Below are positions 453 through 62,281 of a stretch of 64,000 bases of DNA, in pieces (position 1 is the stretch's first letter; each line of letters starts with the position of its first letter). Made by a program: the position numbers and the translations under genes. This DNA comes from Chiloscyllium plagiosum. Its lineage: Eukaryota. The stretch is taken from assembly GCF_004010195.1 (NCBI RefSeq), contig NC_057718.1, positions 103,215,276-103,279,275 of the forward strand, written 5' to 3'. The notes beneath the pieces were generated by a model. The model worked only from the letters and a program-made list of their open reading frames with translations. It had not been told where the DNA came from and ran no database searches.

Positions 453-548
453 CATGATGTCACCTGATGAAGGAGCAGCGCTTAATAAGTTTGTGATTTC
501 AGATAAACATGTTGAACTATAACTTGGTGTCATCTGACTTCTGACCTT
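453..548 (+). mobile_element. Diverged family A element; similar diverged copies at 4885-5197, 21962-22092, 30336-30458, 37238-37418
   Basis: cacctgatgaaggagcagcgct ... aaacatgttgaactataacttggtgtcat ... gacttctgac. Confidence 0.65.
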
Positions 549-1280
549 ATTATATGTTTTTTAGGCTTGAGGGGCTGAATGGCCTACTTCATTGGCCTAG
601 CTGAATCGCCAAGCTGTCATTGAAGGATATGTTGTGGATCATTGGTCAATCTGTGGGACTCTGTGACCCTCTAGCATGACAAGGGAAGATGGATGAAAAT
701 TTCTTGGAGTTCTTTGCCTGTTCCATTTGGATTGTACTGAAAGATTAAACACTCTTAATTACAACGAAAACTGCTAGCGCAGGGGAAGATAACTTGGCTT
801 GATAAATGTTGCCCTTTTTTAAGATAAGTTTGGCGCCTCTCTTAGTTAAACACTAATTCCACTGATAATAAACAGTGATCTACTGCCAGAATGGGCTGAC
901 TTTAATAGGCGTGTATACTGCCGATATTACAAGTTGTTCTTGGGAGTGAACAAGACCATGAGATGCCAACTTTAGTCCCTTCATTCTGGAAATGTCACAG
1001 AGGTTTGGAAGTTCACCAATGTAAAAGAGGAGAGAGAGAAAGCATTGAGCTGGACACCCAGAACCTGCTGGGTACAATCGATGAAGACAGAAATTTTTAA
1101 AATGTGCTCAGAAAATCATGGTGTAATCAGAACAGAAAATGTGGCTTTATGAATGGGAATATGGACAGATTTATTTGGGGTTTTATTTTGCCTATGTAGC
1201 AAGTGAGGTAGATAAAGAAAAGGCCGTAAGTATGGGACTGAATTTACAGGAATTTGTATGTGGCTTGGATTGTCCCCATT

Positions 1281-1977
1281 ATAGAGTCATAGAGTCATCC
1301 AGCATGGAAACAAGACCCTTCGGCCCAACTAGTTCATGCCAACCATGTTCCCAAACTAAACTAGTCCCACCTGCCTGCTCCTGGCCCATCTCCCTTCCTA
1401 TTCATGTACTTATCCAAATGTCTTTTAAATGTTGTAACTGTACCCATATTCACCACTTCCTCAGGAAGGTCATTCCACACACAATCCACTCTATGTGTAA
1501 AACTGTTGTCCCTCACGTCCTTTTTAAATCTTTCTCCTCTCACCTTAAAAATATACCTGCTAGTTTTGAACTCTCAAAGCCTGGTGAAAAGACCCTTACT
1601 GGTCACTTTATCTATGTCCCTCATGATTTCATAAACCATTCCACCTCCTACATTCCATGGGAAAAAGACCCAGCCTCACTTTATAACTCAAACTCTCTAT
1701 TCCTGGCCATGATTCGGAGATGCTGGTGTTGGACTGGGGTGTACAAAGTTAAAAATCACACAACACCAGGTTATAGTCCCACAGTTTTAATTGAAAGCTA
1801 GTGTGCTTCCAATTAAACCTGTTGGACTTTAACCTGGTGTTGTGTGATTTGTAACTCTATTCCTGGCAACATCCTGGTAAATCTTTTCTGAATCCTCTCC
1901 AATTTAATAATATCCTTCCTGTAACAGGGTGACCAGAACTCCAGAAGAGGCCTCACCAACATCCTGTACAACCTCAC
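1281..1977 (-). mobile_element. CR1/HER1 LINE 3' fragment
   Basis: ORFs RGERFK..FTHRV..WNDLPEEVV..TFKRHLDKYM and LYRMLVRPLLE..LERIQKRFTRMLPG; (gactctat)n tail. Confidence 0.9.
1708..1854. mobile_element. Family A palindromic PLE-derived element inserted in a CR1 fragment
   Basis: Inverted arms (aatcacacaacaccaggtt / aacctggtgttgtgtgatt); TSD ctctattcctggc at 1695-1707 and 1855-1867. Confidence 0.85.
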
Positions 1978-2203
1978 AAAAAAAAGCTGGTGACGGCAAT
2001 TCAATGGCCCCAATCCATGGAGAGACGGTCCTTTGGCTTCACAGGAGGGACTGCCGTTCAGCACACCAACGGCAAAGTCTCTTCACCGCTGGTTAAAGAA
2101 AACAGTTGCTGGTGAGGGAAAACAAAATGACTTTCTCCAAGCTTTTGATGTTTTTACTGAGCAGAAAGACAAACCTAGAGATGTAGTCTGTATTAATCCA
2201 CTT

Positions 2204-2420
2204 AGAGTCATTGTCATTTAGATGTACAGCACGGAAACAGACCCTTCGGTCCAACCCGTCTATGCCGACCAGATAATCCAACCCAATCTAGTCCCACCTG
2301 CCAGCACCTGGCCCATACCCCTCCAAACCCTTCCTATTCATATACCCATCCAAATGCCTTTTAAATGTTGCAATTGTACCAGCCTTCAACACATCCTCTC
2401 GCAGCTCATTCCATACACAC
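2204..2420 (-). mobile_element. CR1/HER1 3' fragment
   Basis: 3' UTR acagacccttcggtccaac and ORF2 end similarity. Confidence 0.85.
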
Positions 2421-3903
2421 TTGCGCTGTACGTATACTGCCAGACCTCCTGAGTTTTCCCAGCAATTTCTGTTTTGGTTGCACAGGATTTCCGATTAAAT
2501 AGTTCCAAATGCCTCCTGCTCTCGGTTGTCATATCCCACCCAAATCTGCCTAATTGTGTCATCACACGGTAATTTACATAGAACATAGAACAGTACAGCA
2601 CAGGCCCTTCGGCCTTCAAGTTTATTTCCAAGTTTATTTCTTCAGCAATACCCTAGCAACAGCATTTGCAGTCTATCAAACACAGTAAAGTACCCAGAAA
2701 CTGGCAAAAATACTATCAGGTGGCTCCAACAATTACCGCCACCACAACAATCTGCATTGATAGAGCATCCTTAACCCTGTGGCGCTTCACTGGAGAGTTG
2801 TCAAAATAAAACTTGGCACTAAGTCATTGAATGAGATAAGTAGAGCAAATGATCAGACCCTTGATCAAAGAGGTGGATTTGCAGAAGCATCATAAGATGA
2901 TAAAATATTAACATTGGACTCTGAGGAGAGAGGAAGGTGTAACCTTCTCCACAGAGCTGCATTACAGGGATCAATGATGTGTAATAGTGTGTAAATAAAA
3001 GAGTTTGTTGGAACTGCTGAGAATCAGACAAAAGGGAAAATAGTTGCGGAGGTACAACAAAGTCCGAGTGGAGTCCCTCAGTGAGGGACAAACGCCACTC
3101 TCTTCAATCTTCGTGTCTACCTGGCAGCTTATCCCAGAAGAAGCAGTCAACTGAGGGCTGTATGAGTAAAGAACGATCAAACCATGAAAAACTGCACATG
3201 GTTACATTTCAACATTCAACATGAAGCAGCCTTCAGCTGTTGTATGGTATGGCTAATCATTATTGGCAAATGGGACTGGATTAATGTGGAATATCTAGTC
3301 GGCATGGATGTGTTGGTCTGTTTCACTGTTGTACCAAGCAAGTTCACAGCAACTTGAATATTGGATCTTATTTGAATTCTGATCTTTAACAGTAGGACTT
3401 ATAAAATAAAGCTTTATTAAAAATGGTTTAAGATCTTAATTGTATAAAAATTACAATTGTTCATTCCTGTTAATGCTTATGAAGTAAAACTAAGTTTTGC
3501 ATACTTCAAAGCAATATGTTAGTCATGTTGCACAATGTCTGTCGTCTGAGAGGCTATGTTCAAGTTGCTAGTTCTTACCAAAACCAGAGGTAGACAATAG
3601 GATCTTGACCTTCTGTTCTGTATTTGGAAATGAAAGAAACTCCTAACTAATGACTTCACATCAGAAATATTAAACTAGAATTCCAAAAGAGAAAAATGCT
3701 TTCCAGTTGTGAAACGCTTTGCTTCGTTTTTAAAGTCTATCTTCTGTCTTACTAATTTCTAGAAAGCCACTCACTACATAATCCAAACCCAGCTGAGTCC
3801 TAAGCTCAGACCCCCTGCCCCGGCATCACTGTCACTGTGTAAGCTGCCCCTTTGAGATTCCGTCAGCTTATTTGGAGTTTCTCTCTGCAGTGATGGGCAT
3901 GGA

Positions 3904-4420: not shown

Positions 4421-4925
4421 CTGTCACTGTGTAGCAAGTCTGATGATGCTTCACTTCATAAGGCCCAATCTACAAATGATACTGGAAACTCAACATCACA
4501 TTGCATTCCATTATTCGTTTCAACTTATGCTTAAAGTTCTATCTAGAATCTGAATTATAGAAAGGCATCAGCCTTAGCTCTATTTATCCGGATTCTTTTC
4601 ATCCTGTGCAGAAAGCAGGGCTCCATCCATGTAGATATATTACCCTCCAACTTTACCTTTTGTTGGATCAGCATTCATTGCCCAACCCATGAGAAGGTGA
4701 ATGGTTGCAGTCCATATGCTGTAGGTACAGCAATGATGACATTAAGGAGGCAATTTCTGGGCTTTACCCCAGCCTCTTGTATAAAACAGATTAGGCATGG
4801 CACTTGATTGAATCTCTTTGAAGACCCAAGTTACTGTTTGGTGGAATGGGTAAATAGGTGGCAGTTGGAGTACACTGGGCAAAGTCAGAAGTCACATGAC
4901 ACTAAGTTACGGTCCAATAGACTTA

Positions 4926-5103
4926 CAGGGCAACCTCGATTATCCGAACGACATGGGCGGGGGTGTATTTTGTTCGAATAATCGAGCATTTGGATAATTG
5001 AATGTTCGGATAATACAGTTTACCCAAGCACTGGGGCCTTGTGATCTTGTTTGGATAATCTGAAATTCAGATAATTGATGTTTGGATAACCGAGGTTGTA
5101 CTG
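4926..5103. mobile_element. Tc1/mariner (Tigger/pogo-like) MITE
   Basis: About 24-bp TIRs cagggcaacctcgattatccgaac / gtttggataaccgaggttgtactg, with TA on both sides. Confidence 0.8.
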
Positions 5104-5203
5104 TATTTGAAATCATAAGGTTTTGGAACTCTGCCCGTTCATCAAGTGACTTCAGTGTGACTTCTGACTTTGTCCACCCCAGTCCAATACTGGCATTGAA
5201 GTA

Positions 5204-5407: not shown

Positions 5408-5956
5408 TACCTTGGTAGAAGGAGCATGGAGAGACAGTGAACAACAGAGGGTACAACTCGAAAGGAGCGGATGGCCTTGTACATGGGCATAAGTCACCAA
5501 AAGTTACAGAACAGTTTGACAGAAAATCCTTGACTTTATTAATGGAGGCATGTTAAAAGCTGTTGTGTTGGAAATTCACATGATATTTACATTTCACTGG
5601 CTAACCTGGGAGGGCCAACTCTGATTTATTTTCCAATTTACATCAGTATTTCCCACTGTTTACCATATTAGAAACATAGAAATTAGGAGCTGGAGTCGGC
5701 CATTCAGCCCTTCAAGCCTGCCCCACTGTTCAGTATGATCATAATGGATCATCCAACTCAGTCCCCTGTTCTCTGTTTCTTCCCCTACTCTTTGATCCCT
5801 TTAGCCCTAAGAACTGTATTTAACTCCTTCTTTAAAGCATGCAATGGGTTGGCCTCAACAGCTTCCTGTGGCAGAGAATGTTGAGCAGTATTTGTACTCT
5901 GATGTCGGGATAGGAAGATGAATAAATGCTCCATCTTGTGACACACACAGCCTATC

Positions 5957-6148
5957 TTCCCAGTGGGAGTTGGGGAACACTTCAGCGGTCCGGGACATTC
6001 GACCTTGGACCTTCAGGTGACTATCCTCCAAGGCGGACTTCGGGACAGGCAGCAGTGAAAAGTGGCTGAGCAGAGGCTGATAGCTAAGTTCGGTGCCCAG
6101 AGGGAGGGCCTCAACTGAGACCTTGGGTTCATGTCACATTACAGGAGA
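5957..6148 (+). pseudogene. GIY-YIG endonuclease C-terminal fragment (Penelope-like), two in-frame stops
   Basis: Manual translation, in frame with ORF-track 6131 MSHYR; motifs PVGxxEHF, H..DL.V.IL, EQRLI.KF, GLN.D.GF. Confidence 0.8.
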
Positions 6149-6990
6149 CCACCATTGCACTACACACACACGCACTCCTATATATACACGGACACACATA
6201 TACACAGGCACACACACAGACACTCACACACACCCTTACAGACACACACACTCCCACACTCACACAGGCATCCTCTCAGAGACTTAGACCACTCTACACT
6301 CATACACACACATATACACTCTCTCTCACAGACACACACAACCCCCACCCCAAACACGCACACACTCCCACACTCACAAATGCACCCCCTCACAGACTTA
6401 AGACACTCTATACTTACACACATATACACTCTCTCTCACACTCACAATCCCCAACCTAGACAGACAGACACACACACACAGACAAAGACCCACATGCACA
6501 CATATAAATTGTGCGGTGAATTTGTACTTGCAGAGTTACATTGTACTTTGCTCAAAAACTGCATGAATTTATGTAAAGTTCTGAGCTCCAAAACTGCATG
6601 AATTCATGTAAAACTCCCTTATCTCACTTTTTAGATTAGAATCAATCTAAACATCATAGCATAGACAGAGAGCACAGGGGGCTAACACCTTCAACATATT
6701 GTCTAGCTAACATCCATTGTTACAGCTAACCTGAGAATGCAACTTTAATGCAACTTTGTGATTTACACATGAAAGAAGTGAAACTGTCATGGTGTTCAAA
6801 CAAATGAAAGACTCAACAATCAAGGTATTTTTCAATGTATAATTTCAGTTACATCACTGTAAATTTTTGCTATAAATTCTGTGCCTTAGTATTGTATCCG
6901 CCACTATGACCTGGTGAAGGAGCAGCGCTCCGAAAGCTAGTGTGCTTCCAATTAAACCTGTTGGACTGGTGTTGTGTGATTTTTAACTTT
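5957..6990 (+). mobile_element. Penelope-like retroelement 3' remnant: GIY-YIG C-terminus, CA-rich 3' UTR, hammerhead-bearing terminal repeat (family A)
   Basis: Frame from 5957 reads FPVGVGEHFSGPGHSTLDLQVTILQGGLRDRQQ*KVAEQRLIAKFGAQREGLN*DLGFMSHYR. It resembles the PLE GIY-YIG end (HF...H, E, GLN), and both stops are TGA, consistent with CGA decay. It is followed by a CA-rich UTR and by CTGGTGAAGGAGCAGCGCTCCGAAAGCTA at 6911-6939. Confidence 0.85.
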
Positions 6991-7153
6991 ATCCTCCCTA
7001 TGCTAGGCAATGCTGAGGGACACTCAATGCTCCTACTCATCCATCCATACCCCTAATCCATCTATTACCCACCTCTGGAGAGAAAATGCTGAGGGACTCT
7101 TGTAGTGTATTGATAGTGTCCCTACATCTGAGCTAGGCAGGCCTGAGTTCAAG

Positions 7154-7280
7154 GAGTAAGTGAGGACTGCAGATGCCGGAGATCAGAGCTGAAAATGTGT
7201 TGCTGGAAAAGCGCAGCAGGCCAGGCAGCATCCAAGGAGCAGGAGAATTGACGTTTCGAGCATGAGCCCTTCCTCAGGAA
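7154..7280 (-). mobile_element. Family B single-arm element
   Basis: TSD tgagttcaag at 7144-7153 and 7281-7290; interrupts a tRNA-like SINE. Confidence 0.85.
7250..7277 (-). ncRNA. Minimal hammerhead motif, family B
   Basis: Reverse complement: CTGAGGA A GGGC TCAT GCTC GAAA CGTC. Confidence 0.75.
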
Positions 7281-8903
7281 TGAGTTCAAGACCCACCTAC
7301 TCTACTGTCATAATATCTTTGAGCAGTTTAATTCGACAATACCTGTAAGACATAAAAATTTTCACTTAGTATCATAAACTCTAATGAAATTGTATGGTTC
7401 CAATTTTTGTTTTGGCCATAACACGCAAAACAATCCTTCACTTTCTATTTCATATGAAGCTTTTATAACATCAGTTGTCAAATTTTGTATGAAATGAAAA
7501 GAAATTTGGCCACAGAAATAACTGATGGATAAATGAACTCAAAGCAGATTTTTAATTTCTAAAATATACCTTAATCATAATATTTTTTTCCTGTGAAAAC
7601 ACAAATCTTCCACAGCCTCAGTCCGGAGATAGGCACTTCTGTGACACAAAGGTTTTTGAAAAAGTTTGGGTTTGTAATTCTCCAGGTGTGGAGGTGTTAA
7701 GGAGTGAGCAGAGGTGATCTGGTCTTGTTCCTTCTTGTATAATAAGTGAGATATTTTCCTAATCTACCTGTTACAGGGATGCTATGACCCACCTCTGAAG
7801 CAAGTGAGACTTAAACTTAGCTCTCCCAGCTCAGAGATAGGGACAATACAGCTGCACTGATAAAGCACACAAGGAGTGACTCTACCCTGGTGGAACATGT
7901 TCATGTGGAAGGGAGCAGGTTTAACCTGTTTAACAGTAGAATCCAAATCATCTTAAGCAGTCACACGTCTGGTGTGTGTGTGTGTGTGTGTGTGTGTGTT
8001 GGGGGGGCATAGAAACTGTGAGCTTTACTAGTGTGTGATTATCACATGTGTCATTAGCACACTTTGGTTGGTTTATCTTGCTTAAATGTTCATGCATCAT
8101 TGAGCACCCAAATTCCAGACTGGCTCCCAGGCCTGTTAGGAGTTACTGATTAACAATAATTTCAGTAGCTGCTGCTTGTATTTTCCTTCCTGGTGCATGA
8201 GAGTTAGTTTTATGATTTTTTAATTGAAGTGTAAATACTGGAGCGCCATAAAATGCTTTGATTTATAGGTGACAGGTATGAGAGCTTGCATCGGGGAAAG
8301 CAAGTGCGCTGGGTTCTGCAGTTGCTGGCTTTTCGACACTAATGGTGTTCTCCATCAACTTCAGTTTCTCCAGCCCTGGGATTTATCCTGCACAGTTTAG
8401 AGTTCACTGCTGTGCCTTTCCTTATAATGTACAGTCATTACTGGTTTAAATATTGTATGTACCTCATCTTCTGACTCCTCGGTCCATGAGCCACACCTCT
8501 CTGGGGGGATATTTACAAATGCAACGCAAAGCCACGATCAATGGAGCTGCCATACAAGCTGCCTGCAAGGCAGAATTCCCACAACCCGCTCAAAAGCCTG
8601 CAAACCAACTCCTATTGCACTTTGCTTATCATCCATCAAACTGTCACTTTAATTCAGATGCTATGAGTTGTTTTAATAATATACATTTCACACACACACA
8701 AAAGAATTGGTAACAGTGAGGATGGAGAGTTGCCTTATTATGACCCTCCAATTTCAAACTCTTTATCAGTGAAACCAGCTTCTTAAGGCTGGCCATCAGG
8801 CTATACTATTGTGAACAGCTGGATCAACATAATTTGTATTAGATATTTTCCCAATTAACCTGCTCAGTGATGTTATGACACACCTCTAGAGCAGATGGGT
8901 CTT

Positions 8904-10060: not shown

Positions 10061-11027
10061 CCTGGCCCTGCCAGGCTTGCTGTTCTCTTCCAACCTCCTG
10101 TTTGTCTGCCTTAAAATGAGGAGCAACTTGGGAAAATGTCCCATCATGGTTAAAGTTCCTCTTATCAACCTGCTTTGAATTGTACAGGTAACGAATGCCT
10201 TCCATTGGCTAACTTACAGAGAAGTGGCAAGGTGCTCAAAGATGAGAAAAAACAGCTATAAATGGAATTGAGAATTAGTTGTCATTATAGAGCAGATCAT
10301 GCTCATGTTAAACAGGATGCTCAGTTCTGCTGTTACTAACAGCAAGCATAAGCAACTATGCACAAAATAGTGACAAGAATAGCTTAGTCAATATACTACA
10401 GAGCAATTGTCAGTCAAAAATTAGTCTTGTCAGAGAGAGTGTGGTGCTGGAAAAGCACAGCCGGTCAGGCAGCATCTGAGGAGCAGGAGAATCAACATAC
10501 TTACTTTCACCCTGTCAGGGAGATGTCAACTCTGAGAAAACTAATGTCAAGACCAGTCTGTGTTGCTGCTGATGTGAAGGTAACTTCTTATGATGTAGTT
10601 GCCATTATTGGCTGGTTGTGCTGGTTTCTATGCGAAGGGGCTGGGTTTATAGGGGGCTGGATCATATGTCCAGATTGATTACTTACACTCGCATTGGATG
10701 AGATTGTAGCTCAGTCACGCACAATGTTAAAATCAGACTCCCAACCTGTAACACTCAGGAATTGGCACTGACAATGATATTCGAGAACCGCATCCTGGAC
10801 ATTCCTCCAATTCCCATTGCCAATCTGTCTGCAGGTCCCAGGTGAAGGTCAGCAGATTCTGGACAACTGCTGTCATTTGAACAGCTACAATTATGACAGG
10901 ATTACCCTTGAGCAGATGGTAGTGAGTTTCCTTCTTAACCTACTGAATGTCTGTGGTGTAGGAATACAGAAAATGCTTTCTGAAAGGGTGTTCCTACCTG
11001 TATCGCTCAAAAAAAAAACTCAGTGGT

Positions 11028-14158: not shown

Positions 14159-14391
14159 TCAAGATTAGTGTGGTGCTGAAAAAGCACAGCAGGTCAGGCA
14201 ACATCTGAGGAGCAGGAAAATCGACATTTCGGGCTAAAGCTCTTCATCAGAACTTCCTCATTCCTGATGAAGGGCTTTTGCCCGAAATGTCGATTTTCCT
14301 GCTCCTCGGATGCTGCCTGACCTGCTGTGCTGTTTCAGCACCACACTAATCTTAACACTAATCTCCTGCATCTGCAGTACCCACCTCCTCC
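14159..14391. mobile_element. Family B palindromic element inserted in a CR1 3' end
   Basis: About 95-bp inverted arms plus a one-sided extension; 16-bp TSD tttagagggatatggg at 14143-14158 and 14392-14407. Confidence 0.9.
14223..14291. ncRNA. Back-to-back pair of family B hammerhead motifs (minus 14223-14250, plus 14264-14291)
   Basis: GACATTTC GGGC TAAA GCTC TTCATCAG ... CTGATGA A GGGC TTTT GCCC GAAA TGTC. Confidence 0.7.
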
Positions 14392-16321: not shown

Positions 16322-16432
16322 GAGGTAAAAACAATGACTGCAGATGCTGGAAACCAGATTCTGGATTAGTGGTGCTGGAGAAGCTCTTTGGATGCTGCCT
16401 GAACTGCTGTGCTCTTCCAGCACCACGAATCC
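16322..16432. mobile_element. Family B internally deleted palindromic element
   Basis: 14-bp TSD ataaatggacttgc at 16308-16321 and 16433-16446. Confidence 0.8.
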
Positions 16433-17060: not shown

Positions 17061-17184
17061 ACCTAGCAACTTTAATATAGTGAGCTATCCCAGGGCATAC
17101 ACAGGAATAATCATCAGACAGTGTTTGTAATTTACCTGCATAAGGAGAAGTCAAGACAAGTGATCAAAAACATGGTTAGAGATG

Positions 17185-17338
17185 ATTTGGAGATGCCGGT
17201 GTTGAACTGTGGTGGACAAAGTTAAAATCACACAACACCAGGTTATAGTCCGACAGGTTTATTTGGAAGTACTATGTTTCAGAGCGCTGCTCCTTCATCA
17301 GGTGGTTGTACTCCCGTTGGACTATAACCTGGTGTTGT
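17185..17338. mobile_element. Family A palindromic PLE-derived element
   Basis: Same consensus; TSD gttagagatg at 17175-17184 and 17339-17348. Confidence 0.85.
17273..17301 (-). ncRNA. Minimal hammerhead motif, family A, stem III variant
   Basis: Reverse complement: CTGATGA A GGAGC AGC GCTCT GAAA CATA. Confidence 0.6.
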
Positions 17339-17448
17339 GTTAGAGATGGTAGAGTAAGGGCAAATTGCTGAGTCAGCAATTCAGAGGCACAGGCTAATGA
17401 ACTGGAGGTATATCAACTCATGGTGAGATTTAAATTCACTTGATAAAT

Positions 17449-18040: not shown

Positions 18041-18121
18041 AAAGGATGAATAAATAAATGAGAGAAAGAGAAACAGAAATTGTTGGAAAGCCTCAGCAGG
18101 TACGGCAACATTTGTGAAGAG

Positions 18122-18152
18122 AATGTTTCGGGTCCAGTGACCCTTTCTTCAG
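18122..18152 (-). ncRNA. Minimal hammerhead motif, family C
   Basis: Reverse complement: CTGAAGA AA GGGTC ACTG GACCC GAAA CATT. Confidence 0.6.
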
Positions 18153-20050: not shown

Positions 20051-20224
20051 TGTAAATTTTTGCTATAAATTCTGTGCCTTGCAATTGTGCCCTCCACAAC
20101 CACCTGATGAAGGAGCGACGCTCTGAAAGCTAGTGCTTCCAATTAAACCTGTTGGACTATAACCTAGTGTTGTGTGGTTTTTAACTTTGTACACCCCAGT
20201 CCAACACCGGCATCTCCAAATCAT
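20051..20224 (+). mobile_element. Family A PLE 3' end (UTR, hammerhead and tail)
   Basis: tgtaaatttttgctataaattctgtgcctt matches the PLE remnant at about 6858-6888, followed by the hammerhead and the tail ...ccagtccaacaccggcatctccaaatca. Confidence 0.85.
20104..20132 (+). ncRNA. Minimal hammerhead motif, family A
   Basis: cac CTGATGA A GGAGC GAC GCTCT GAAA GCTA gtg; flanking cac/gtg can form stem I. Confidence 0.75.
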
Positions 20225-41200: not shown

Positions 41201-41293
41201 ATCAGATTTTAAACTTTCTCTATAGATTTCCCCAGGTCGACTTTGGTGTTCTGCTGCACAAATTTCTGATAGACAGGTCCCTTTCAGAGAGCT

Positions 41294-41510
41294 TAGATCG
41301 GAGTGGTGCTGCAAAAGCACAGCACGTCAGGCAGCAGGAAAGTCGACATTTCGGGCAAAAGCCCTTCATCAGGAGTAGATATTCCTGATGAAGGGCTTCT
41401 GCCTGAAACATCCATTTACCTGCTCCTCAGATGGTGCCTGACCTGCTGTACGTTTCCAGCACCACTCTAATCTAAACTCTGGTTTCCAGCATCTGCAGTC
41501 CTCACTTTTG
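41294..41510. mobile_element. Family B palindromic element nested in a solo LTR
   Basis: 15-bp TSD ccctttcagagagct at 41279-41293 and 41511-41525. Confidence 0.9.
41345..41412. ncRNA. Back-to-back pair of family B hammerhead motifs
   Basis: Minus 41345-41372 and plus 41385-41412; both retain CTGATGA and GAAA, and stem III shows CpG-type decay. Confidence 0.65.
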
Positions 41511-44553: not shown

Positions 44554-44650
44554 CCCCTCTCAGTGTATCTCTCATCCCATGCTTCATTTCTGGTTGCTGT
44601 TCTCAATTCTTCATCACTCACTGTTGGTGAGTGTTTTCACTCTAAGGTTG

Positions 44651-44779
44651 ATTCCTGAAGAAGGGCTTATGCCCGAAACGTCGACTCTCCTGTTCCTTGG
44701 ATGCTGCCTGACCTGCTTCGCTTTTCCAGCAACACATTTTCAGCTCTGATCTCCAGCATCTGATGCCCTCACTTTCTCT
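44651..44779 (+). mobile_element. Family B single-arm element
   Basis: Hammerhead followed by consensus ctcctgttccttggatgctgcctgacctgc...ccagcatctg; TSD-like tcactctaagg / tcactcctagg. Confidence 0.85.
44655..44682 (+). ncRNA. Minimal type I hammerhead ribozyme motif, family B, core intact
   Basis: CTGAAGA A GGGC TTAT GCCC GAAA CGTC; palindromic ACGT stem III, GUC triplet. Confidence 0.8.
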
Positions 44780-45480: not shown

Positions 45481-45665
45481 CGAGTGTACAGAACAATCTG
45501 GGTTTGTTCAATATATCGCATCAGTTGCATGAAACTGTGATCTTTTGCTATAAATTCTGTGTCCTATGATCCTGCCCCACTAGCTACCTGATGAAGGAGC
45601 AGCGCTCCAAAAGCTAGTGCTTCCAAATAAACCTGTTGGACTATAACCTGGTGTTATGTGATTTA
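45481..45665 (+). mobile_element. Family A PLE 3' end; hammerhead with GAAA changed to AAAA
   Basis: ttttgctataaattctgtg ... CTGATGAAGGAGCAGCGCTCCAAAAGCTAGTG ... ctataacctggtgtt. Confidence 0.8.
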
Positions 45666-50579: not shown

Positions 50580-52660
50580 AGTGTGAGAGCGTGAATATGT
50601 GACAGGGTGGATGAGTGAATGAGTATACATTAATGTGTGTGTGTGTTTATGAATTTATACTAGCATGTGTTTGATTGTATGCAAATGTATATTAGTGCAT
50701 GTGTAATCAATGTGTGCACATAGATGTGATTTGATTTATTATTGTCACGTGTATCGAGACACAGTGAAAAGTATGGTTTTGCGTGCTTTCCAGACAAATC
50801 ACACCTGACATAAGTACATCAGGGAAATAAAATACAATGCAGAATATAACATCATAACTACAGAGAAGGTGCAGAGAAAGCTCAACTCTAATATACGAGA
50901 TGTTCGTTCATAAGTCTGATAACAGCGGGGATAAACAACAGTGTATTATTTGCGTGTGTGAATTGTGAATGTGTGTTTGAGAGTGAGTATATGTTTGTGT
51001 ATTTGTGTGTATATCTGGCAGAGTGTGTGCATGAGAGAGTATAGGTGAAATTGAGGATTGCAGATGCTGGTGATCAGAGTCAGGAGTGTGGTGCTGGAAA
51101 AATCACAGCAGGTCAGGCAGCATCCGAGGAGCAGGAGAATCGATATTTCGGGCATAAGCCCTTCATCATGACCTTCCTTGGATGCTGCCTGACCTGCTGT
51201 GTTTTTCCAACACCATACTTTCATATGAGAGAATATATATTGATGCATATTTGTGTGTATGTGCCTGATTGTGTGTGAAAGTATGTATTAATGCACTTTT
51301 GTGCATGTGTGTTTGGGGGGGGGGTAGTGGGAGTGTTGGTCCATGTGTGTATATCTGATTCTGTGAGAGACAGTGTATATATTAATATGTTTCTCTGTGT
51401 GTATGTATGTGTGTGTATTAAAGCGTGCACGTGCCAAGTGTATGAATTTGACTGTGTCTGAATAAGTGCTTGTGTATTAATTTGTATGGGACAGTGCAAA
51501 TGAGTGTGTGAATTTGTGAGAGACAGTATGAATGAGTGCATGAATTTGTGAGGGAGTGTGTGATTAAGTGAGCGAGTGTAAGTAAGCGGGTCGAACAAAC
51601 AATCTATTGAAACTGTGGACCAGGTGGCCATTTTGATCTAACCTACACTGTATGGTCTGTTAATCAATGCAGTCCAGATAAGTGTGTATTTTTTGTGAAT
51701 GAGTAGTGTGTTTGTGCGTAAATGAGTGTGTACTTTTATGAATTAGTGAGTGTGTACACCTGTGAATGAGTGTGTTTTTGTGTGATTGAATGTGTATGTG
51801 TGTGAATAAGTGTGTATTTTTGTGATAGTGGGTCCTTATACATGTTGGTTTCTGCTGGCCTGCCTTGGAGGGATTCACTGTCACCAACCTATCTTGCTGG
51901 ATTTAGTCTAAGGCACTGGCACCATGTGGGGAAGGATGCACAGGCAACATTCCAGGCAGGAGATAGACTCAATCCTGATGAATAGAATTGCATATAACTT
52001 GGTATGAGTTATATTACACTTAATATACATGACAGTCTCTTCTGAGACAGTTAAGATTGCAATGACGTTACGTCTACAGAAATATTCTCACTCAACATTA
52101 GTAACAAGCACAGAGCTCTCGGGACACTCTGGTTTGCTTCTCCTGGAGCTATCCTCTACGTCCTGATGGACAGAGTTGACCTTATGAGGTCAGTTAACTT
52201 CTTGTGGCTGTAACTGCCTTGTGCAACCTGAATGTATGTGAGTGTGTAAGTGTGTGTGAGTATGTAAGTGTGTACGCTTGAATGAGCTAATGCATAAGTG
52301 TACCTGAGTATGTGTTGATCTGTGTCTCAATGTGACTTTGTGTCTGATTGTGTGACTGAGTGAGTGTGTGTGTGTTTGTGGGTGAGTGAGTGCAAGTTTG
52401 TGTATGTGTGAGTGAGTGTGACTGCGAGTTTGTGTGTACGTTTGTATGAGAGTGTGAGTTTGGGAGTGAATGAGTGAGTATGCATTTGTGAGAGAGTGAG
52501 TGAGTGTGTGCATGTGAGTTTTTGTATGAGTATGTGAGTGAGTGAGTGTGTACGTGTGAGTTTGTGTGTGTGGTTGTGAATATGTGTTTGTGTATGAGAA
52601 TGAGTGTGTGCATGTATGAGTGAGTGAGTCTGTGCATTTGAGTTTGCGAATGTAAGTGAT
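50580..52660. repeat. Extended degenerate TG-rich low-complexity region
   Basis: (TG)n/(TGAG)n-like tracts interrupted by repeats; source of the His/Thr-rich spurious ORFs. Confidence 0.85.
51044..51224. mobile_element. Family B palindromic element
   Basis: TSD-like atgagagagtata (51031-51043) / atgagagaatata (51225-51237). Confidence 0.8.
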
Positions 52661-52674
52661 TGTGAACATCCGAG

Positions 52675-52956
52675 TTAAAAATCACACACCACCAGGTTAT
52701 AGTCCAACAGGTTTAATTGGAAGCACTAGCTTTCAGAGCGCTCCACCGTGCCGCCCACTACCACCGTGCCGCCCACTGCCACCGTGCCCGATTGTGAACA
52801 TCCGAGTTAAAAATCACACACCACCAGGTTATAGTCCAACAGGTTTAATTGGAAGCACTAGCTTTCAGAGCGCTGCTCCTTCATCAGGTGGTTGTATAGC
52901 CTAGTGTTGTGTGATTTTCAACTTTGTACACCCCAGTCCAACACCAGCATCTCCAA
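52675..52956. mobile_element. Family A element with a locally duplicated left part
   Basis: Consensus match; TSD-like attgtgaacatccgagt / attgtgaatatctgagt. Confidence 0.8.
52859..52887 (-). ncRNA. Minimal hammerhead motif, family A
   Basis: Reverse complement: cac CTGATGA A GGAGC AGC GCTCT GAAA GCTA gtg. Confidence 0.75.
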
Positions 52957-54293
52957 ATTGTGAATATCTGAGTGTGAGTGCACTGTCCTAGTAACTGGGC
53001 AGAGTGTCATTAGGGAACAAAGGAGAGGCTTGGGTGTTTTCAAATTAATCGTGAGCATCTGGTCACTAGAAGTGCAGATTTTTCTGAGTGCTAGACACTG
53101 CTTTGTTGAACACATTGCCACTTACTGCTGACGTTCTGGAGATCACAGATCCATTCCCCTCATTGGGGAAGTGGTAAAGGCTGTTCTTTCTGCTGGTTGA
53201 CAGAGAACCACATGAAATTCCTGATTGCGAATCGTCACTTTCCACGTGTTATGGCTCTGGATATGATATCGACATCATAAATCATTCTCATCATTGCATT
53301 GGCTGTGCACATTGGCTGATCTGATGCTTCAATGGTGACTAGAAACATGGACAGCTGCTTGGACGAAAGATGCAGCTGGTGAGAATAACAACTGCTGGGG
53401 AACGACCCTGTGCCTTTGCCAGGTGACAGGACATACAAATAGCCACTGTTTATTTATCTTCTCGGAAGCTGCATCCCCTACCTTCTCCCACCCTCCCCCA
53501 CTTGCTGCTTTGGGATCATTCTGTACCAGGTACTCTCCAGCAGAGCCTCCCCAGTCTCCTTTAGCTGCCGTGCACATGGTCAGTCACAAGGAGGTGCCAT
53601 GAGGTTTGTGGGATATGAAAGGGGATTGACAGAGTAGACATGGGGCAATACAGACCCAGGGGTCATAGTTCCCAGGTGAGGGGTAGCAGATTTTATAACA
53701 CAGATGAGGAGGAATTACTTCCCTCAAAGGATTGTGAATCTGTGGAATTCACTGCCTCAACATGGGGAATTAGGCCATTCAACCGATTGAGTCCGCTTCA
53801 CCATTCGATCATGGCTGATATATTTCTCAACCTCCATTCTCCTGCCTTCTCCCCAGAACATGTCAGCCCCTTACAATCAAGAACCTATCTATCTCTGTCT
53901 TAAAGACACTCAATGATGTTTTATGGGATGAGAATGTTGCTGACTGAACCAACATTTATTGCCCAGAGGGCAGTTAAGAGTTAACCACCTCACTTTGTGT
54001 CTGGAGTCACATGTAGGCCAGGTAAGGGTGGCAGTTTTGTTCCCTGAAGGACATTAGTGAACTAGATGGGTTTTTCCTAACAATCAACACTGTCATCATT
54101 ACACTGGTAAAGATTTTACTAAGTTCAAATTATACCTGCCATGGCAGGATTTGAACCCAGGTTCCCAGAGTCAAGAGTCTAGTGATAACACTATTAGGTC
54201 ATTGTCTCCCATACCTTTGGGCACCACAGCCTTCTGTCGCAATGAGTTTCATGGATTGACCAACCTCTGGCTGAAGAAATTGCTCCTCATCTC

Positions 54294-54492
54294 AGAAAAG
54301 CACAGCAGGTCAAGCAGCATCCGAGGATCAGGAGAGTCGACGTTTCGGGCAAAAGCCCTTTATCTGGAAACTTATGAAGGGCTTATGCACGAAACGTCAA
54401 TTCTCCTGCTCCTCGGATGCTGCCTGACCTGCTGCGCTTTTCCAGCAACACACTCTCGACTCTGATCTCCAGCATCTGCAGTCCTCACTCTT
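54294..54492. mobile_element. Family B palindromic element
   Basis: Inverted arms gaaaagcacagcaggtc / gacctgctgcgcttttc with two decayed hammerhead motifs. Confidence 0.8.
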
Positions 54493-54670
54493 TCTTCATC
54501 TCGGTAAATTTAAATAGTGTTGGGGAGAAGGTTTTCAACGAAGCCATTCTGGGGAATGGACAGGGAAGTGGAGTCGAGGCCAAGATGGGATTAGCCACAA
54601 TCGTACTGAATGACAGAGCATAATTGATGGGCTGAATGGCCTCTTCCTGTTGCTGGCTCACGTGTTTTAA

Positions 54671-54860
54671 GATTTGGAGGTGCCGGTGTTGGACTGAGGT
54701 GGACAATGTTAAAAATCACACAACATCAGGCTATATTCCAATAGATTTATTTGGAAGCACTAGCTTTCAGAACCACCTGATGAAGGAGCAGCGCTCCGAA
54801 AGTTAGTGCTTCCAAATAAACCTGTTGGACTATAACCTAGTGTTGTGTGATGTTTAACTG
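54671..54860. mobile_element. Family A palindromic element
   Basis: Inverted arms around the hammerhead at 54777. Confidence 0.8.
54777..54805 (+). ncRNA. Minimal hammerhead motif, family A
   Basis: cac CTGATGA A GGAGC AGC GCTCC GAAA GTTA gtg. Confidence 0.7.
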
Positions 54861-54950
54861 TGTCTTTATAAGATATGGCCCTGACGTGTCCAGCTTTCCT
54901 GTCCTCTCTTGCCTCATTGTGGGGAGTTCACTTGTTACTGCTCAACACCA

Positions 54951-55321
54951 GGTGAAAGTGAGTACTGCAGATGCTGGAGATCAGAGTCAAGATTGTAGTG
55001 GTGCTGGAAAAGCACAGCAGGTCAGGCAGCATCCGAGGAGCAGGAAAAACGACATTTCAGGCAAAAGTTAAAAATCACGCAACACCAGGTTATAGTCCAA
55101 CAGGTTTATTTGGAAGCACTAGCTTTCGGAGCGCTGCTCCTTCATCAGATGATTGTGGCGAATGTGTGATTTTTAACTTTGTACACCCCAGTCCAACACC
55201 AGCATCTCCAAATCATTTCAGACCCTTCATTAGGAGTCTGCCCGAATTTTGCCAGAAATGTCCATTCTCCTGCTCCTCAGATGCTGCCTGACCTGTTGTG
55301 CTTTTCCAGCACCACTCTAAT
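54951..55321. mobile_element. Family B palindromic element containing a nested family A element (about 55064-55213)
   Basis: Outer TSD-like cttgttactgctcaacacca / cttgctgctgctcagcatca; inner TSD catttcag at 55053-55060 and 55214-55221. Confidence 0.85.
55120..55148 (-). ncRNA. Minimal type I hammerhead ribozyme motif, family A, core intact
   Basis: Reverse complement: CTGATGA A GGAGC AGC GCTCC GAAA GCTA; perfect 5-bp stem II, palindromic AGCT stem III, CUA cleavage triplet. Confidence 0.8.
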
Positions 55322-55657
55322 CTTGCTGCTGCTCAGCATCACCCTCACAAAAGGCAGACTGCTGGCCTGTAACGCATCACTGGGACAACAACAACTTCCA
55401 TTTATATATCACCCGCCTCATGGGAACATTTTTAAGCTCGATCTGACATTGAGCTGCGTGGCAGGGCACCAGGAGGGACCACCAAAGATTTGCAGAAAGG
55501 CAGCAGGTTTAAAGAGAGTCTGGGAAGGAGGGAGGTGTGAAGGTGAGGGGGAGTGTGTGTAGCCAGAGGGGTTTTAGGGAGAGGCGGAGATCCCCGAATT
55601 TGCATCCCAGCTGAAGGGATGGCCACCACTGGCCCGAGCAGATGAAGCTGGGGATTT

Positions 55658-55878
55658 GAGCTGAAAAATGTGTTGCTGGAAAAGCGCAGCAGGTCAGGCA
55701 GCATCTAAGGAGCAGGAGAATTGACGTTTCAGGCATAAGCTCTTCATCAGGAATAAAGAAGGGCTTATGCCCGAAACGTCGATTCTCCTGCTCCTTGGAT
55801 GCTGCCTGACCTGCTGCGCTTTTCCAGCAACACATTTTTCAGCTGTGATCTCCAGCATCTGCGGTCCTCACTTTCTCA
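55658..55878. mobile_element. Family B palindromic element
   Basis: TSD aagctggg(g)atttg on both sides; minus-strand hammerhead at 55723-55750. Confidence 0.85.
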
Positions 55879-57457
55879 AAGCTGGGGATTTGGCCTGGCC
55901 AGTTGAGACGGCTGCAGAGGCTAGCGAGGGTGGTGGCACTGATTGCAGAGATAGGAGAGGAGAGGCCAGGCCAGGGAGGGATTTAAAACCAAGGCCGAGA
56001 ATTTTAATTACAGACAGAAACTCATGTCTTGCCGTCAATTTTAATAGCTTGATTAACCAGCAGCAATTTCTGAAAATGTCACACAATTTCTGCATCATTG
56101 GTGCCTGTACAAAAACTGTAGAAGAGGACTTCAGTTTATAATGGGTTATGACAATTAAATTGTTGTGTCACTTTAAGACTAGCATTAATCTTCACTTGTC
56201 ATTCCTGCTTAATGCAGGTTGTAAAAGGCTCTGTGTTTTAATGAATTGGGATGCATGAGGTCTTTTGGCATTGAATAACTGACAATGTGCTGGTCACCCT
56301 GAACTCATCATAAAATCTCTGAGAGCAGTGGAAATATGATCATCTGACCAGGGAGGACATCCATTTCCTAATGACAACACTGACCAGTGACAGTCAAGTA
56401 ATTATCTTCCACGCCATCAGTCAACGCTTCCATCCTTTCAAGTATTGCTGTTCTTAATTAATCGTGTTTAGCAAAACCACACCTTTTGCTCTCAATAGCC
56501 GTCAAGCTCCTCTGAGATTCAGAGCCAGCAAAAAAAATTTGTGGCCAAAATCTGAATCCTGACGGAGCATTACTGCTGACTGACCTCCCATCTCGAGCTA
56601 AGAATCTATCAGAGTATGGCTGACAGTCTTGAGCTGGAACATGCTAATTCGCCCCATTGTTTCAGGGTGAATGGCTTCACAGTATTTATCAACAATGGAT
56701 TTTGCATAAACCTCCTCATTTAGGGGGATTTCATTTGAACTTTTTTGTCTCATCTAGCCTGCCCCTCCCCCTCCCCCCACCACACACATAAGGAAATAGC
56801 CAGGGAGAATTATTTTGTTTTTAAATTCCGTGTGTTACAAGGGATTACCAATAGGATTAAGTGTGTCAGCCTGGCTATTTTATATTCATTGCTGCTAAAT
56901 GCGCAAATGGTGGACATGTTATTCCTAGAGATCAACTATAGGACCGTCTTTGTCATTACAGGAACACTGCCCATTATAATTTCTTTAAAACAAACTCACA
57001 CATATTTTAAAGGTTATTGTGTGGAGAGCCCGTATTGCAACAGAGTCAGAAACAGAATCCACATTTCTTGCCTTCTACACTGACACAGTGAATAAAATAT
57101 TCTGCAATGTTTTGTCTGGCACACCTCAGGAACCTCAGTTTCTCACAGACCTTGAAAGAATATGACAGCAAAACGTCAAGAACAATGTAGGCACATTGAA
57201 AGGAGAAAGGATTCCTGAAGGTTTTGGATTACGGCATTTGGATTCCTTCCCAATAACCGTTACCAGCCTCTGTATTGCTAGTTTTCAATGGCCTACCATG
57301 AGCTTCCACACTTTCAAATTTCTGGGCCCCACACTCTGGTATTCTCTCCCCAGCGCTCCCAATCCCTCCAGCACTCTCTCCTTTCAGATGCTTCATCATA
57401 GCTATCTTTCTTGGCCTAAAATCTCTTTGCATGACTCTGTCAAACTTTACTCGATAA

Positions 57458-57552
57458 ATTCCTGATGAATACCTTTGGCCCAAAACGTCGATTTTCCTGC
57501 TCCTTGGATGCTGCCTGACCCACTGTGCTTTTCCAGCACCACTCTAATCTCA
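57458..57552 (+). mobile_element. Family B single-arm fragment; further fragments at 10433-10498 and 18416-18495
   Basis: ttcctgatgaa...cccaaaacgtcgattttcctgctccttggatgctgcctgacc. Confidence 0.75.
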
Positions 57553-60500: not shown

Positions 60501-60751
60501 AGAGCAGTGAAGATTTATGTTGGGCCAAATGGCCTGTTTCTGTGCTGTGCTGTGCAATCCTTTTTATTTCACAAGTAAGGGCAGAATTTTATTGAGCCAC
60601 TTTGAGGAGTTGATAGTGGATTTTGCTTTTAGACTATTGCAATTCTCACGATGCAATGATATAATTAAGATGAAGACTCTGGTTCATGACTCTCAATAAA
60701 ACAATGTTCTGTTGCTCAACTATCATGAGATACTATTTTGTATTAATGATG

Positions 60752-61128
60752 TAGAGTCATAGAGTCATAGAGGCGTACAGCACGGAAACAGACCCTTCCA
60801 TCCAAATCCTCCATGCCAACCAGATATGCTAACCCTAATCTCGTCCATTTACCAGCACTTGGCCCATATCACTCTAAACCTTTCCTATTCATATACCCAT
60901 CCAAATGCCTTTTAAATTTTGTAATTGTACCAGCCTCCACCAATTCCTCTGATAGCTCATTCCTCTGCGTGAAAAAATTGTTGCTTGGGTCCCTTTTAAA
61001 TCTTTCCCCTCTCACCCGAAACTTATGCCCTCTAGTTCTGGACTCCCCCATCCTAGAGAAAAGACCTTGTCTATTTACCCTATCCATGCCCCTCATGATT
61101 TTATAAACCTCTATTAGGTCACCCCTAA
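60752..61128 (-). mobile_element. CR1/HER1 3' fragment
   Basis: LRGDLIEVYKIMRGMDRV..TRGHKFRVRGERFKRD. Confidence 0.9.
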
Positions 61129-61270
61129 GTGTCTGATGCTGATGGAGTCCTGATGGAGTCCATAATCTTATTAAAAACAGCAAAGTTTGTAATGATCTAT
61201 GTCTTATTGTAAAATTGCTATAGTAGAATGAAAATACAATTTCACTCAAAAAAACCTTTCTCAACATTAT

Positions 61271-61436
61271 GATTTGGAGACGCCATTATTGGACTGGGGT
61301 GTACAAAGTTTAAAATCACACAACATGAGGTTAAAGTCCAACAGGTTTATTTGGAAGCAGGAAGGAGCAGTGGTTCGAAAGCTAGTGCTTCCAAATAAAC
61401 CTGTTGGACTATAACCTGGTGTTTTGTGATTTTTAA
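61271..61436. mobile_element. Family A palindromic element
   Basis: Inverted arms; 15-bp TSD ctttctcaacattat at 61256-61270 and 61437-61451. Confidence 0.85.
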
Positions 61437-62281
61437 CTTTCTCAACATTATCTGAAATTACTGCTTAACTGAGCTGCTCTCATTTAAGTCAATTTATCAA
61501 TAAATCATTACCAACATTTAGCAACAAAGAAATGAACAACAAGACTTTCTTCACGAACCTGAAAAGGAAATGTGCAACTAAAGTGAGCATTTGTTCTGTC
61601 AAAGGTAAGAGAGTGGAAATGCTACAGAAAGATAAGGAAATGGCACATGTATCAAGACAGGTTTTGTGGCTGGAATTCTCGTTCCAAGGTCAGAGATAAA
61701 TGCAATCTGGGAGGAAGTGCGCCAAAACGTCAGATTTTTGGTTTCAAGGGTGAAGGGGGGTGGGGTCGTAGCTGGGTGGAGGCAGTCTTAAGGTTTGGAA
61801 TCTTGCCTTGGTGCCCTGGCATTCTTTCAAGACAGGGAAAAGAAGACAATGAAAACCAACATTGGCCAACATCTCCTCACCCCTCACACTCTCTCCATGC
61901 CCCCTTCACTCTGACTCATGCCATCTTATGACTTAAAACCACCACTCACACTCCGTATCTTTCCAGCCATCTACCATGTTAATTACACCCCCTACACTAA
62001 CTTCTTGCCAATTCACAGCAACACATGTCCAAACCAACAAACTTTACTTTAACACCTTCCATGACAACTTCATGTATTTATGAATTCACTACTTCAAAAA
62101 AGAAATACTCTCATTGATAAAAAAAATCTATTCACTGCAGTGAACTTCCTGTAATACCTTGCAAAAATAAAATTGGATTCATTTTTCCACTTCAAAGAGA
62201 CTAAAATCATGTCAATCAAGCTATGAATTGAAAGGCACCCCACTGTAACAATGGAAAGTTATGAAATTATCAAAGAGTCAA

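What the first reader, a model, noticed from the sequence alone, without database searches (positions are those of the whole stretch)
453..61451. Three parallel families of short elements share one minimal hammerhead ribozyme architecture
Seen: family A is CTGATGA-A-GGAGC(agc)GCTCC-GAAA-GCTA, family B is CTGANGA-A-GGGC(ttat)GCCC-GAAA-CGTC, and family C is CTGAAGA-A(A)-GGGTC(actg)GACCC-GAAA-CATT. The catalytic core and an extra A after A9 are shared, while stem II differs between families and stays paired. In A and B, stem III is a loopless palindrome (AGCT, ACGT) followed by an NUH site. I count about 35 copies or fragments by eye in 64 kb, many with decayed cores. Established: Penelope-like elements carry minimal type I hammerheads of this form, which are thought to cleave as dimers. 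Inference: this genome has a very dense, multi-family set of hammerhead-bearing PLE derivatives. The PLE-hammerhead link is known; I cannot tell whether these families and this density have been described.
Basis: partly seen in the sequence, partly recalled or inferred. Interest (0 to 1): 0.85.

Follow-up and report, generated by a model that had tools for sequence, protein, structure and literature searches.

The report
Hammerhead-bearing Penelope retrotransposon stubs in shark
The three motif families are real and are the ribozyme-motif-carrying end pieces of three Penelope-like jumping genes, scattered through a shark-type genome as short, often mirror-image insertions; the ribozyme type is already known and its cutting is untested here, but the copies likely record where the element's RNA starts.

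Summary
In detail: 54 arms of families A, B and C lie in the window. Eight keep an intact core plus stem II, against 0 in 200 shuffles. They are not separate short-element families. Each is the 3' pseudo-LTR end of its own Penelope-like element (RT plus GIY-YIG, CxxC linker), and one full pLTR-ORF-pLTR copy was found. The architecture matches the minimal hammerhead of Cervera and de la Peña 2014. C is also ACGT-palindromic; CATT is CpG decay. About 105,000 intact cores occur genome-wide. Neighbouring copies are head-to-head and TSD-flanked, with one long and one short 3' end (74 of 83). 5' ends pile up at helix I's outer edge, not the cut site. Family A RNA is polyadenylated upstream of both 3' ends. 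Likely mechanism: both target strands prime on the uncleaved RNA leader and run off its 5' end. This scan noted the stubs, pairs and 5' clustering before on other DNA of this genome; the poly(A) site was not among its notes. Known kind, new members.

The parts
5906..7001 (+). Long 5'-truncated family-A element: end of the GIY-YIG coding region (5906-6145), CA-rich 3' UTR, pLTR with decayed hammerhead (~6911) and short 3' end
460..548 (+). Family A solo arm, decayed, starts at -4 of C3
1710..1862 (.). Family A head-to-head pair (long - arm, short + arm), 13-bp TSD
4863..5196 (.). Two weak, old family A fragments (4863-4925 -, 5155-5196 +; E about 1e-4 to 3e-4)
17183..17341 (.). Family A head-to-head pair
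20046..20223 (+). Family A solo arm with tail, hammerhead at 20104
22001..22093 (+). Old family A arm, with an inverted tail remnant just upstream
30336..30455 (+). Old family A solo arm with tail
36333..36542 (.). Family A head-to-head pair, 13-bp TSD (1 mismatch)
37236..37416 (.). Old family A head-to-head pair
45492..45664 (+). Family A solo arm (-96 to +78), G12 mutated
52671..52958 (.). Family A pair (52802-52958, 12-bp TSD) with a partial direct duplicate at 52671-52744 (-)
54671..54863 (.). Family A head-to-head pair, hammerhead at 54777 (+)
55063..55215 (.). Family A pair inserted in the centre of a family B pair (8-bp TSD); holds the only copy passing the full descriptor (55120-55148, -)
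61270..61445 (.). Family A head-to-head pair, TSD 10-15 bp
7155..7285 (-). Family B solo arm with tail
10435..10498 (-). Family B fragment lacking the core
14167..14386 (.). Family B head-to-head pair, 21-bp TSD (1 mismatch)
16329..16431 (.). Family B pair lacking both cores, 14-bp TSD
18410..18499 (-). Family B solo arm, decayed core
25714..25921 (.). Family B near-perfect palindromic pair, TSD 14-16 bp
41290..41509 (.). Family B head-to-head pair, 15-bp TSD
44648..44777 (+). Family B solo arm with tail; intact core, stem II, GUC site; stem I only 2 bp
51047..51223 (.). Family B head-to-head pair, 13-bp TSD (1 mismatch)
54271..54493 (.). Family B head-to-head pair
54954..55340 (.). Family B pair (54954-55067 -, 55247-55340 +) split by the family A insertion
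55639..55876 (.). Family B head-to-head pair
57456..57545 (+). Family B solo arm, short end
2426..2493 (+). Family C fragment lacking the core
18063..18153 (-).
25281..25337 (+). Weak family C fragment
26151..26252 (-). Family C solo arm
26918..27330 (.). Two family C arms (26918-27036 -, 27212-27330 +) inside a 316-bp, 99% inverted duplication that includes flanking DNA
36866..37096 (.). Family C head-to-head pair

Best explanation
Families A, B and C are the hammerhead-motif-bearing pseudo-LTR ends of three distinct endonuclease-positive Penelope-like retrotransposons, and the short copies are likely dead-end products made when reverse transcription starts inside the leader of an uncleaved RNA and runs off its 5' end just upstream of the ribozyme motif. 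Shown: ORF linkage, a full pLTR-ORF-pLTR copy of A whose long 3' end is the start codon, two alternative 3' ends about 35 nt apart, TSD-flanked head-to-head pairs with one long and one short end, 5' ends at -15 to -1 of C3, and a poly(A) site in family A upstream of both 3' ends. Inferred: the endonuclease makes staggered nicks 10-20 bp apart; each target strand primes at one of the two internal start sites (as seen in vitro for the anole element); the two cDNAs are joined at their ends; long copies need read-through past the poly(A) site. Inferred and untested: the ribozyme was kept under selection in the source elements and cleaves weakly, as a dimer or with protein help, but does not set the ends of these copies; most genomic copies are decayed or would be masked in hairpins.
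For: ORF upstream of the motif: A 18 of 20, B 17 of 20, C 10 of 14. Best homologs of the A protein are shark proteins at 81% and 77%; all 76 listed hits were examined and most carry RVT_1, PF28514 and PF26215, some also GIY-YIG PF01541. RT-region identity: A-B 32-39%, A-C 22-33%, B-C 39-66%. L121 is a direct pLTR-ORF-pLTR copy. Mixed long/short pairs 74 of 83, expected 41.4, p=3.5e-14; exact TSD of 8 bp or more in 33 of 83 against 0.3% null; relaxed TSD of 10 bp or more in 43 of 83 against 1 of 245. 97 of 124 arms reaching -1 end within -15..-1, against 1 of 27 in the next 15 nt and 11 of 194 at +25..+29. Genome-wide, of 41,780 intact B cores of one loop type, 13,188 keep 7 upstream bases and 38,451 keep 7 downstream bases. 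In 34 of 74 mixed pairs the short arm reaches 10 nt or more further upstream, the long arm in 14. T-run loose ends at +60 (438 reads) and +57 (363 reads) of 3,100 laid, 12-15 nt after ATTAAA. Frangieh 2024: both strands cleaved and extended, two internal start sites equal to the tail ends, uncleaved RNA is the main substrate.
Against: No transcription start was observed; the read lay listed no place where many molecules begin or end. D. virilis Penelope starts well upstream of an intron whose 3' end is at helix I, so a start 5-15 nt before the core is not the only precedent. 5' ends spread over 15 nt and many arms end downstream of C3 (87 of 211), so trimming must be added. The poly(A) reads come from one sample, 2% of one run, mostly 90-95% alike, and so from many copies; they do not show that the autonomous mRNA ends there (ORF depth about 1-12). 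No 5' pLTR was looked for in B or C. About half of untargeted arms (98 of 211) are not in pairs. Some pairs are near-perfect palindromes (25714-25921), which fold-back would also give. B's commonest stem I has a U-U mismatch, and C has U17.
Confidence: 0.6

Rival explanations
1. Same elements, but the inverted arm arises by self-priming or fold-back (proposed by Arkhipova 2013, possibly on an antisense template), and the 5' wall reflects palindromic microhomology in and before the ribozyme motif.
For: Small overlaps at most junctions. Arms of one pair are closer to each other than to other pairs: B 0.072 vs 0.131, A 0.109 vs 0.129, C 0.172 vs 0.210. Near-perfect palindrome at 25714-25921. Passage.
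Against: In 34 of 74 mixed pairs each arm holds sequence the other lacks (tail versus upstream bases), against 14 the other way. The same wall is seen in unpaired arms and in three families with different upstream sequence.
Confidence: 0.2
2. The 5' wall is set by RNA processing or RT drop-off at the ribozyme fold (a splice acceptor at helix I as in D. virilis, or a stall), not by the transcription start.
For: The D. virilis intron ends at the 5' end of helix I. The wall coincides with the helix I edge in all three families.
Against: Upstream flanks of 61 unpaired arms share no exon-like sequence; the only matches were a poly-C run, inverted-partner remnants and one weak 25-nt hit. A structural stall should fall on the 3' side of the fold (inference).
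Confidence: 0.12
3. A, B and C are self-propagating non-autonomous families (SINE-like or retrozyme-like) that use hammerhead cleavage to cut out their own RNA.
For: Very high copy number; tandem retrozymes related to pLTRs are reported in one chondrichthyan.
Against: Tandem neighbours 2 versus head-to-head 53. Junctions differ from pair to pair. Only 11 of 194 arms end at the cut site. Each family runs upstream into an ORF.
Confidence: 0.05
4. The motif is a conserved RNA signal for the element's protein or for 3' processing and no longer cleaves.
For: Low in vitro activity of minimal hammerheads. Polyadenylated reads cover the motif region. Weak stem I in B.
Against: The invariant positions are exactly the catalytic ones while N7 and loop II drift. 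The anole motif cleaves with protein help.
Confidence: 0.15

Closest known systems
Minimal hammerheads (min-HHR) of metazoan Penelope-like elements (Cervera and de la Peña 2014, PMC4209133)
   Same: Core only, extra nucleotide between 9 and 10.1, G10.1-C11.1, palindromic 15.2-16.2, several consensus families per genome, mostly single truncated copies, some duals on opposite strands.
   Different: Stem II 4-5 bp and stem I 3-4 bp here (7-8 and 4-5 bp in schistosome families). About 105,000 intact cores against about 4,000 (coelacanth) and 9,000 (Xenopus), counted by different methods. No shark is named in the parts read; supplements were not read.
Insertion units of endonuclease-positive Penelope-like elements, Neptune/Nematis type (Craig 2021, PMC8557442; Arkhipova 2013, PMC3846280)
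   Same: pLTRs, adjacent inverted 5'-truncated copy, 30-40 bp tail at one end, TSD of about 8-10 bp or more, CX2-5CxxC linker before a C-terminal GIY-YIG domain.
   Different: Here most units are reduced to 100-250 bp with a sharp 5' wall at helix I; the one-tail rule is quantified (74 of 83).
Anole Poseidon element PAc (Frangieh 2024, PMC11167929)
   Same: Two 3' ends about 35 nt apart; uncleaved ribozyme retained in copies.
   Different: PAc is Poseidon clade, its ORF starts in stem II and its RT start sites lie inside the ORF; in family A the long end is the start codon, about 120 nt after the core. Target flanks here are only slightly AT-rich (62% vs 59%).
Non-LTR retrozymes (Li, Clavereau, Pollet 2026 preprint, 10.64898/2026.07.22.740005)
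   Same: Type I hammerhead, pLTR-related, non-coding copies.
   Different: Retrozymes are head-to-tail tandem arrays; these copies are solo or head-to-head.

Membership tests
Minimal hammerhead of metazoan PLEs | Conserved core CUGANGA / GAAA / UH | tested here: met
   87,227 (B), 17,385 (A) and 544 (narrow C pattern) exact genome hits, reversed controls 0
Minimal hammerhead of metazoan PLEs | Extra nucleotide after A9 and G10.1-C11.1 pair | tested here: met
   extra A in 97 of 97 (A), 97 of 99 (B), 26 of 31 (C)
Minimal hammerhead of metazoan PLEs | Loopless palindromic stem III | tested here: met
   AGCT in A, ACGT in B and C
Minimal hammerhead of metazoan PLEs | Short stem I closing the core | tested here: inconclusive
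   CAC/GTG in A, AGTT/AACT in C, ATTC/GAAT in one B subfamily (9 of 100) but ATTC/GATT with a U-U mismatch in the commonest B form
Minimal hammerhead of metazoan PLEs | Located in the pLTR of a PLE | tested here: met
   both pLTRs of L121 for A; downstream of PLE ORFs for B and C
Minimal hammerhead of metazoan PLEs | Self-cleavage as a dimer | not testable with these tools
   no assay; minimum-energy homodimers paired through the palindrome with stem II kept for the B window copy only, other folds for A
EN+ Penelope-like element | Single ORF with RT and C-terminal GIY-YIG | tested here: met
   L098/L121 aligns to residues 1-880 of P0003; RT motifs in B- and C-linked loci. A direct Pfam scan of six short fragments gave no hit
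EN+ Penelope-like element | Direct pLTRs flanking the ORF | tested here: inconclusive
   met for A; not sought for B and C
EN+ Penelope-like element | Inverted 5'-truncated copy, one-ended tail, TSD | tested here: met
Neptune/Nematis clades | CX2-5CxxC linker before GIY-YIG | tested here: met
   present in A, B and C translations; definition
Neptune/Nematis clades | RT phylogeny with labelled references | not tested
   no labelled reference set at hand; Neptune and Nematis not separated
Non-LTR retrozyme | Head-to-tail tandem units each with a hammerhead | tested here: not met
   2 tandem against 53 head-to-head neighbours among 211 arms
SINE or MITE amplifying as a unit | Shared 5' head or shared central junction | tested here: not met
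   junction positions differ among 97 pairs; upstream flanks of 61 unpaired arms not shared
Rfam hammerhead models | Match to a covariance model | tested here: not met
   none among 30 matches at E<=10

The most novel reading that the evidence does not exclude
The pseudo-LTR of these elements works like a retroviral U3-R-U5: RNA starts at the outer edge of the hammerhead's helix I, is polyadenylated about 60 nt later in the 3' repeat, and so carries its two RT start sites only in the 5' leader. A dimeric protein primes both target strands there, so the default product is a 100-250 bp mirror-image stub and a full copy needs read-through of the poly(A) site. About a million stubs would then record the RNA's ends, and family A stubs would supply poly(A) sites to host transcripts across the shark genome.
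Probability: 0.35. Interest if true: 0.65.

Novelty: new member of a known kind. Interest (0 to 1): 0.36.

Why it matters
The ribozyme type and the inverted-copy-plus-tail pattern are known, so the finding as worded is ordinary. What the genome adds is scale and a test bed. It holds about 105,000 intact cores and roughly a million arms from three lineages, enough to measure where copies start and stop. The transposition cycle of Penelope-like elements and the role of their hammerhead are still open. The 5' wall at helix I, the strict one-long-one-short rule and the poly(A) site upstream of both 3' ends give a concrete model that 5'-end mapping and the existing in vitro system can test.

Tried and rejected
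Rfam scan: no hammerhead family; the miRNA-precursor hits reflect the head-to-head hairpins and simple repeats. Pfam scan of six short ORF fragments: no hit. A genome search by a recalled Pfam accession was not possible because the family is not in the library. Many 'long open frames' near ORF hits were assembly gaps. One search was a mis-framed translation and was not used. Run search: no RNA holder listed among indexed runs; X20 laid 0 reads and is no test; the contig runs X1 and X3 show presence only. A cut-site peak of 5' ends was sought; only a mild bump was found (11 of 194 at +25..+29, hazard 0.06 against 0.02-0.04 beside it), not relied on. Dimer folding did not recover the hammerhead dimer for most constructs and is not used for or against. 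Strong AT preference of targets not seen. Lünse 2017 is not held; only its title was seen in a reference list. Literature searches for shark hammerheads, twin priming with Penelope-like elements and pLTR polyadenylation listed no paper describing these families or a pLTR poly(A) site; Repbase, Dfam and most subscription journals could not be searched.
Full report
1. Observation. A plain scan for CTGANGA...GAAA gave 21 matches, most of families A and B. Profiles built from long natural copies found 54 arms in the window: A 25, B 21, C 8. A strict descriptor passed 8 copies for core plus stem II, 4 with stem III and NUH, and 1 with a stem I of three pairs (55120-55148, minus); 200 dinucleotide shuffles gave none. 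The window is G000:C9:103,215,276-103,279,275 in a 3.56-Gb assembly. Exact-pattern counts: B 87,227, A 17,385, C 544 with a narrow pattern; reversed controls 0. Thirteen 10-kb stretches taken at round coordinates (not formally random) held 40 arms in 129,609 bases. That scales to about 1.1 million arms (roughly 0.8-1.5 million from counting error alone), and the window is about 2.8 times denser. One correction: family C is also palindromic (GAAAC GTT AAC). CATT and TGTT are CpG decay.

2. What the families are. The window itself holds the end of a GIY-YIG coding region at 5906-6145, a CA-rich 3' UTR and then family A. In loci picked by ORF similarity, the motif lies downstream on the same strand in 18 of 20 (A), 17 of 20 (B) and 10 of 14 (C); several misses are assembly gaps or short contigs. 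The A protein's best homologs are shark proteins (81% and 77%), which is my basis for calling the genome shark-type. L121 is a complete direct pLTR-ORF-3'UTR-pLTR copy, with a frameshift and a gap; the long 3' end of family A runs directly into its start codon. RT-region identity is 32-39% for A-B, 22-33% for A-C and 39-66% for B-C, the low values from frameshifted copies. All three have the CX4CxxC linker that Craig 2021 gives for Neptune and Nematis. No tree with labelled references was made.

3. The ribozyme motif. Across the three lineages the catalytic positions and the extra A are shared while all three stems change in pairs (stem III G-C versus C-G; stem II A-U/G-C and G-C/C-G/U-A; stem I C-G/U-A). 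Within families, non-CpG mismatch in the core is 32 of 975 (A), 27 of 993 (B) and 31 of 310 (C), against 311 of 5,030, 536 of 5,114 and 292 of 1,602 downstream. N7 and loop II drift (copies chosen by the motif pattern were left out). This fits selection on the fold in the source elements (inference). B and C also share downstream sequence, so only the A versus B/C comparison separates core from flank across families. Cleavage was not tested.

4. Insertion anatomy. Among 211 arms not targeted by the search that fetched their locus, same-family neighbours are head-to-head 53 times, tandem twice and never tail-to-tail; 113 of 211 sit in a pair. Of 97 pairs in all loci, 14 were dropped (an arm ending before +75, a wide gap, or a locus edge). 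Of the remaining 83, 74 have one long and one short 3' end, 6 two long and 3 two short (expected mixed 41.4; p=3.5e-14); in the window 14 of 15. Exact TSDs of 8 bp or more flank 33 of 83 (null 0.3%), relaxed TSDs of 10 bp or more 43 of 83 (null 1 of 245). Each pair is therefore one insertion. In 34 of 74 mixed pairs the short arm reaches 10 nt or more further upstream than the long arm, in 14 the reverse, in 26 within 10 nt. Read-through RNA of five window pairs is predicted to fold into one hairpin of -86 to -180 kcal/mol.

5. Where copies start. Of 124 arms that reach position -1 (C3 = 0), 97 end within -15..-1; of the 27 left, 1 ends in the next 15 nt. At the predicted cut site (+25..+29) 11 of 194 end. 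The wall is seen in paired and unpaired arms of all three families, and 61 unpaired arms share no upstream sequence beyond a poly-C run, remnants of inverted partners and one weak hit. Genome-wide, 13,188 of 41,780 intact B cores (TYAT loop) keep seven upstream bases, while 38,451 keep seven downstream bases, two of them allowed to vary. ORF-linked copies mostly carry the same seven upstream bases.

6. RNA. One raw-read run (poly(A) single-cell, 2026, same species label as the best DNA holders; 2% read) laid 3,100 reads on the A pLTR-ORF junction. T-run loose ends lie at +60 (438 reads) and +57 (363 reads), 12-15 nt after ATTAAA and before a GT-rich tract, in sequence that is not A-rich. This is polyadenylation on the element's sense strand, upstream of both the short (+83 to +90) and long (+119 to +122) ends. 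Depth continues across the motif, and no pile-up of starts or ends was listed. Limits: one sample, reads from many copies, ORF depth near 1-12, and a library that would not show cleavage ends. A second run laid no reads.

7. Mechanism. Frangieh 2024 showed for an anole element that both DNA strands are cut and extended, that RT starts at two internal sites equal to the tail ends, that the protein is a predicted dimer and that uncleaved RNA is the main substrate. Joined with sections 4-6, the likeliest reading is dual priming on the RNA leader, run-off at a 5' end near helix I, trimming and end-joining. I put this at 0.6 overall; identity as PLE ends alone is about 0.95. Fold-back (Arkhipova 2013) remains a rival for a subset. 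A start site at -15..-1 is inferred, not seen.

8. What is known. Cervera and de la Peña 2014 describe this motif, its extra nucleotide, the palindrome, multiple families and opposite-strand duals (parts 1-2 of 4; supplements, whose alignments may include a cartilaginous fish, not read). Craig 2021 and Arkhipova 2013 describe the inverted copy, one-ended tail and TSD (passages). Schostak 2008 places an internal promoter in the pLTR (passages). Weinberg 2019 reviews the dimer model (passages). The 2026 retrozyme preprint includes one chondrichthyan (parts 1-2 of 5 and passages; supplements not seen). A whale shark preprint reports expanded Penelope-like elements (two passages). Searches listed no description of these families, the 5' wall or a pLTR poly(A) site; Repbase and Dfam were out of reach. 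Earlier notes of this scan on the same genome reached the same reading of stubs, pairs and 5' clustering; a query on polyadenylation found none. Hammerhead numbering and poly(A)-signal spacing are from my own knowledge.

9. Verdict. Real, far beyond chance, and a new set of members of a known kind. Interest 0.36.

Noticed in passing
L053:608-737, L075:6722-7108, L027:4228-4428, L029:5422-5502: A fourth hammerhead family (extra nucleotide T, 6-bp stem II, GUC site), next to a different, Poseidon-like ORF in L027 and L029 (clade label from recall); it also forms head-to-head pairs. Not found in the window.
   Followed up: partly
window:26762-27486: 316-bp inverted duplication at 99% with a 93-bp spacer; it carries a family C arm plus flanking DNA, so it is not an ordinary pair.
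   Followed up: no
window:54954-55340: A family A pair has inserted into the centre of a family B pair; family B pairs also interrupt family A ORFs in L034 and L047.
   Followed up: partly
family C, about +36 to +50 after C3 (e.g. window:37039-37052): A pyrimidine tract ending in CAG followed by ATG, resembling a splice acceptor, just downstream of the motif.
   Followed up: no
L123 (L103), element start: A near-full family A ORF begins at its start codon right after an inverted pLTR arm that starts at the long tail end, the layout expected from twin priming on one RNA.
   Followed up: partly
window:3883-4419: Tandem array of a 30-bp unit, about 17 copies.
   Followed up: no
window:43238-44600: 300-bp exact direct repeat (43238 and 44071) around a 40-bp tandem array.
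   Followed up: no
window:62829-63260, 1392-1550, 2213-2411, 13980-14162: Fragments of abundant LINE-type repeats, one with an RT-like open frame (CR1/L2 label from recall).
   Followed up: no
L105:106-714: Tandem array of a 28-bp piece of family A downstream of a family A ORF, a possible satellite derived from the pLTR.
   Followed up: no
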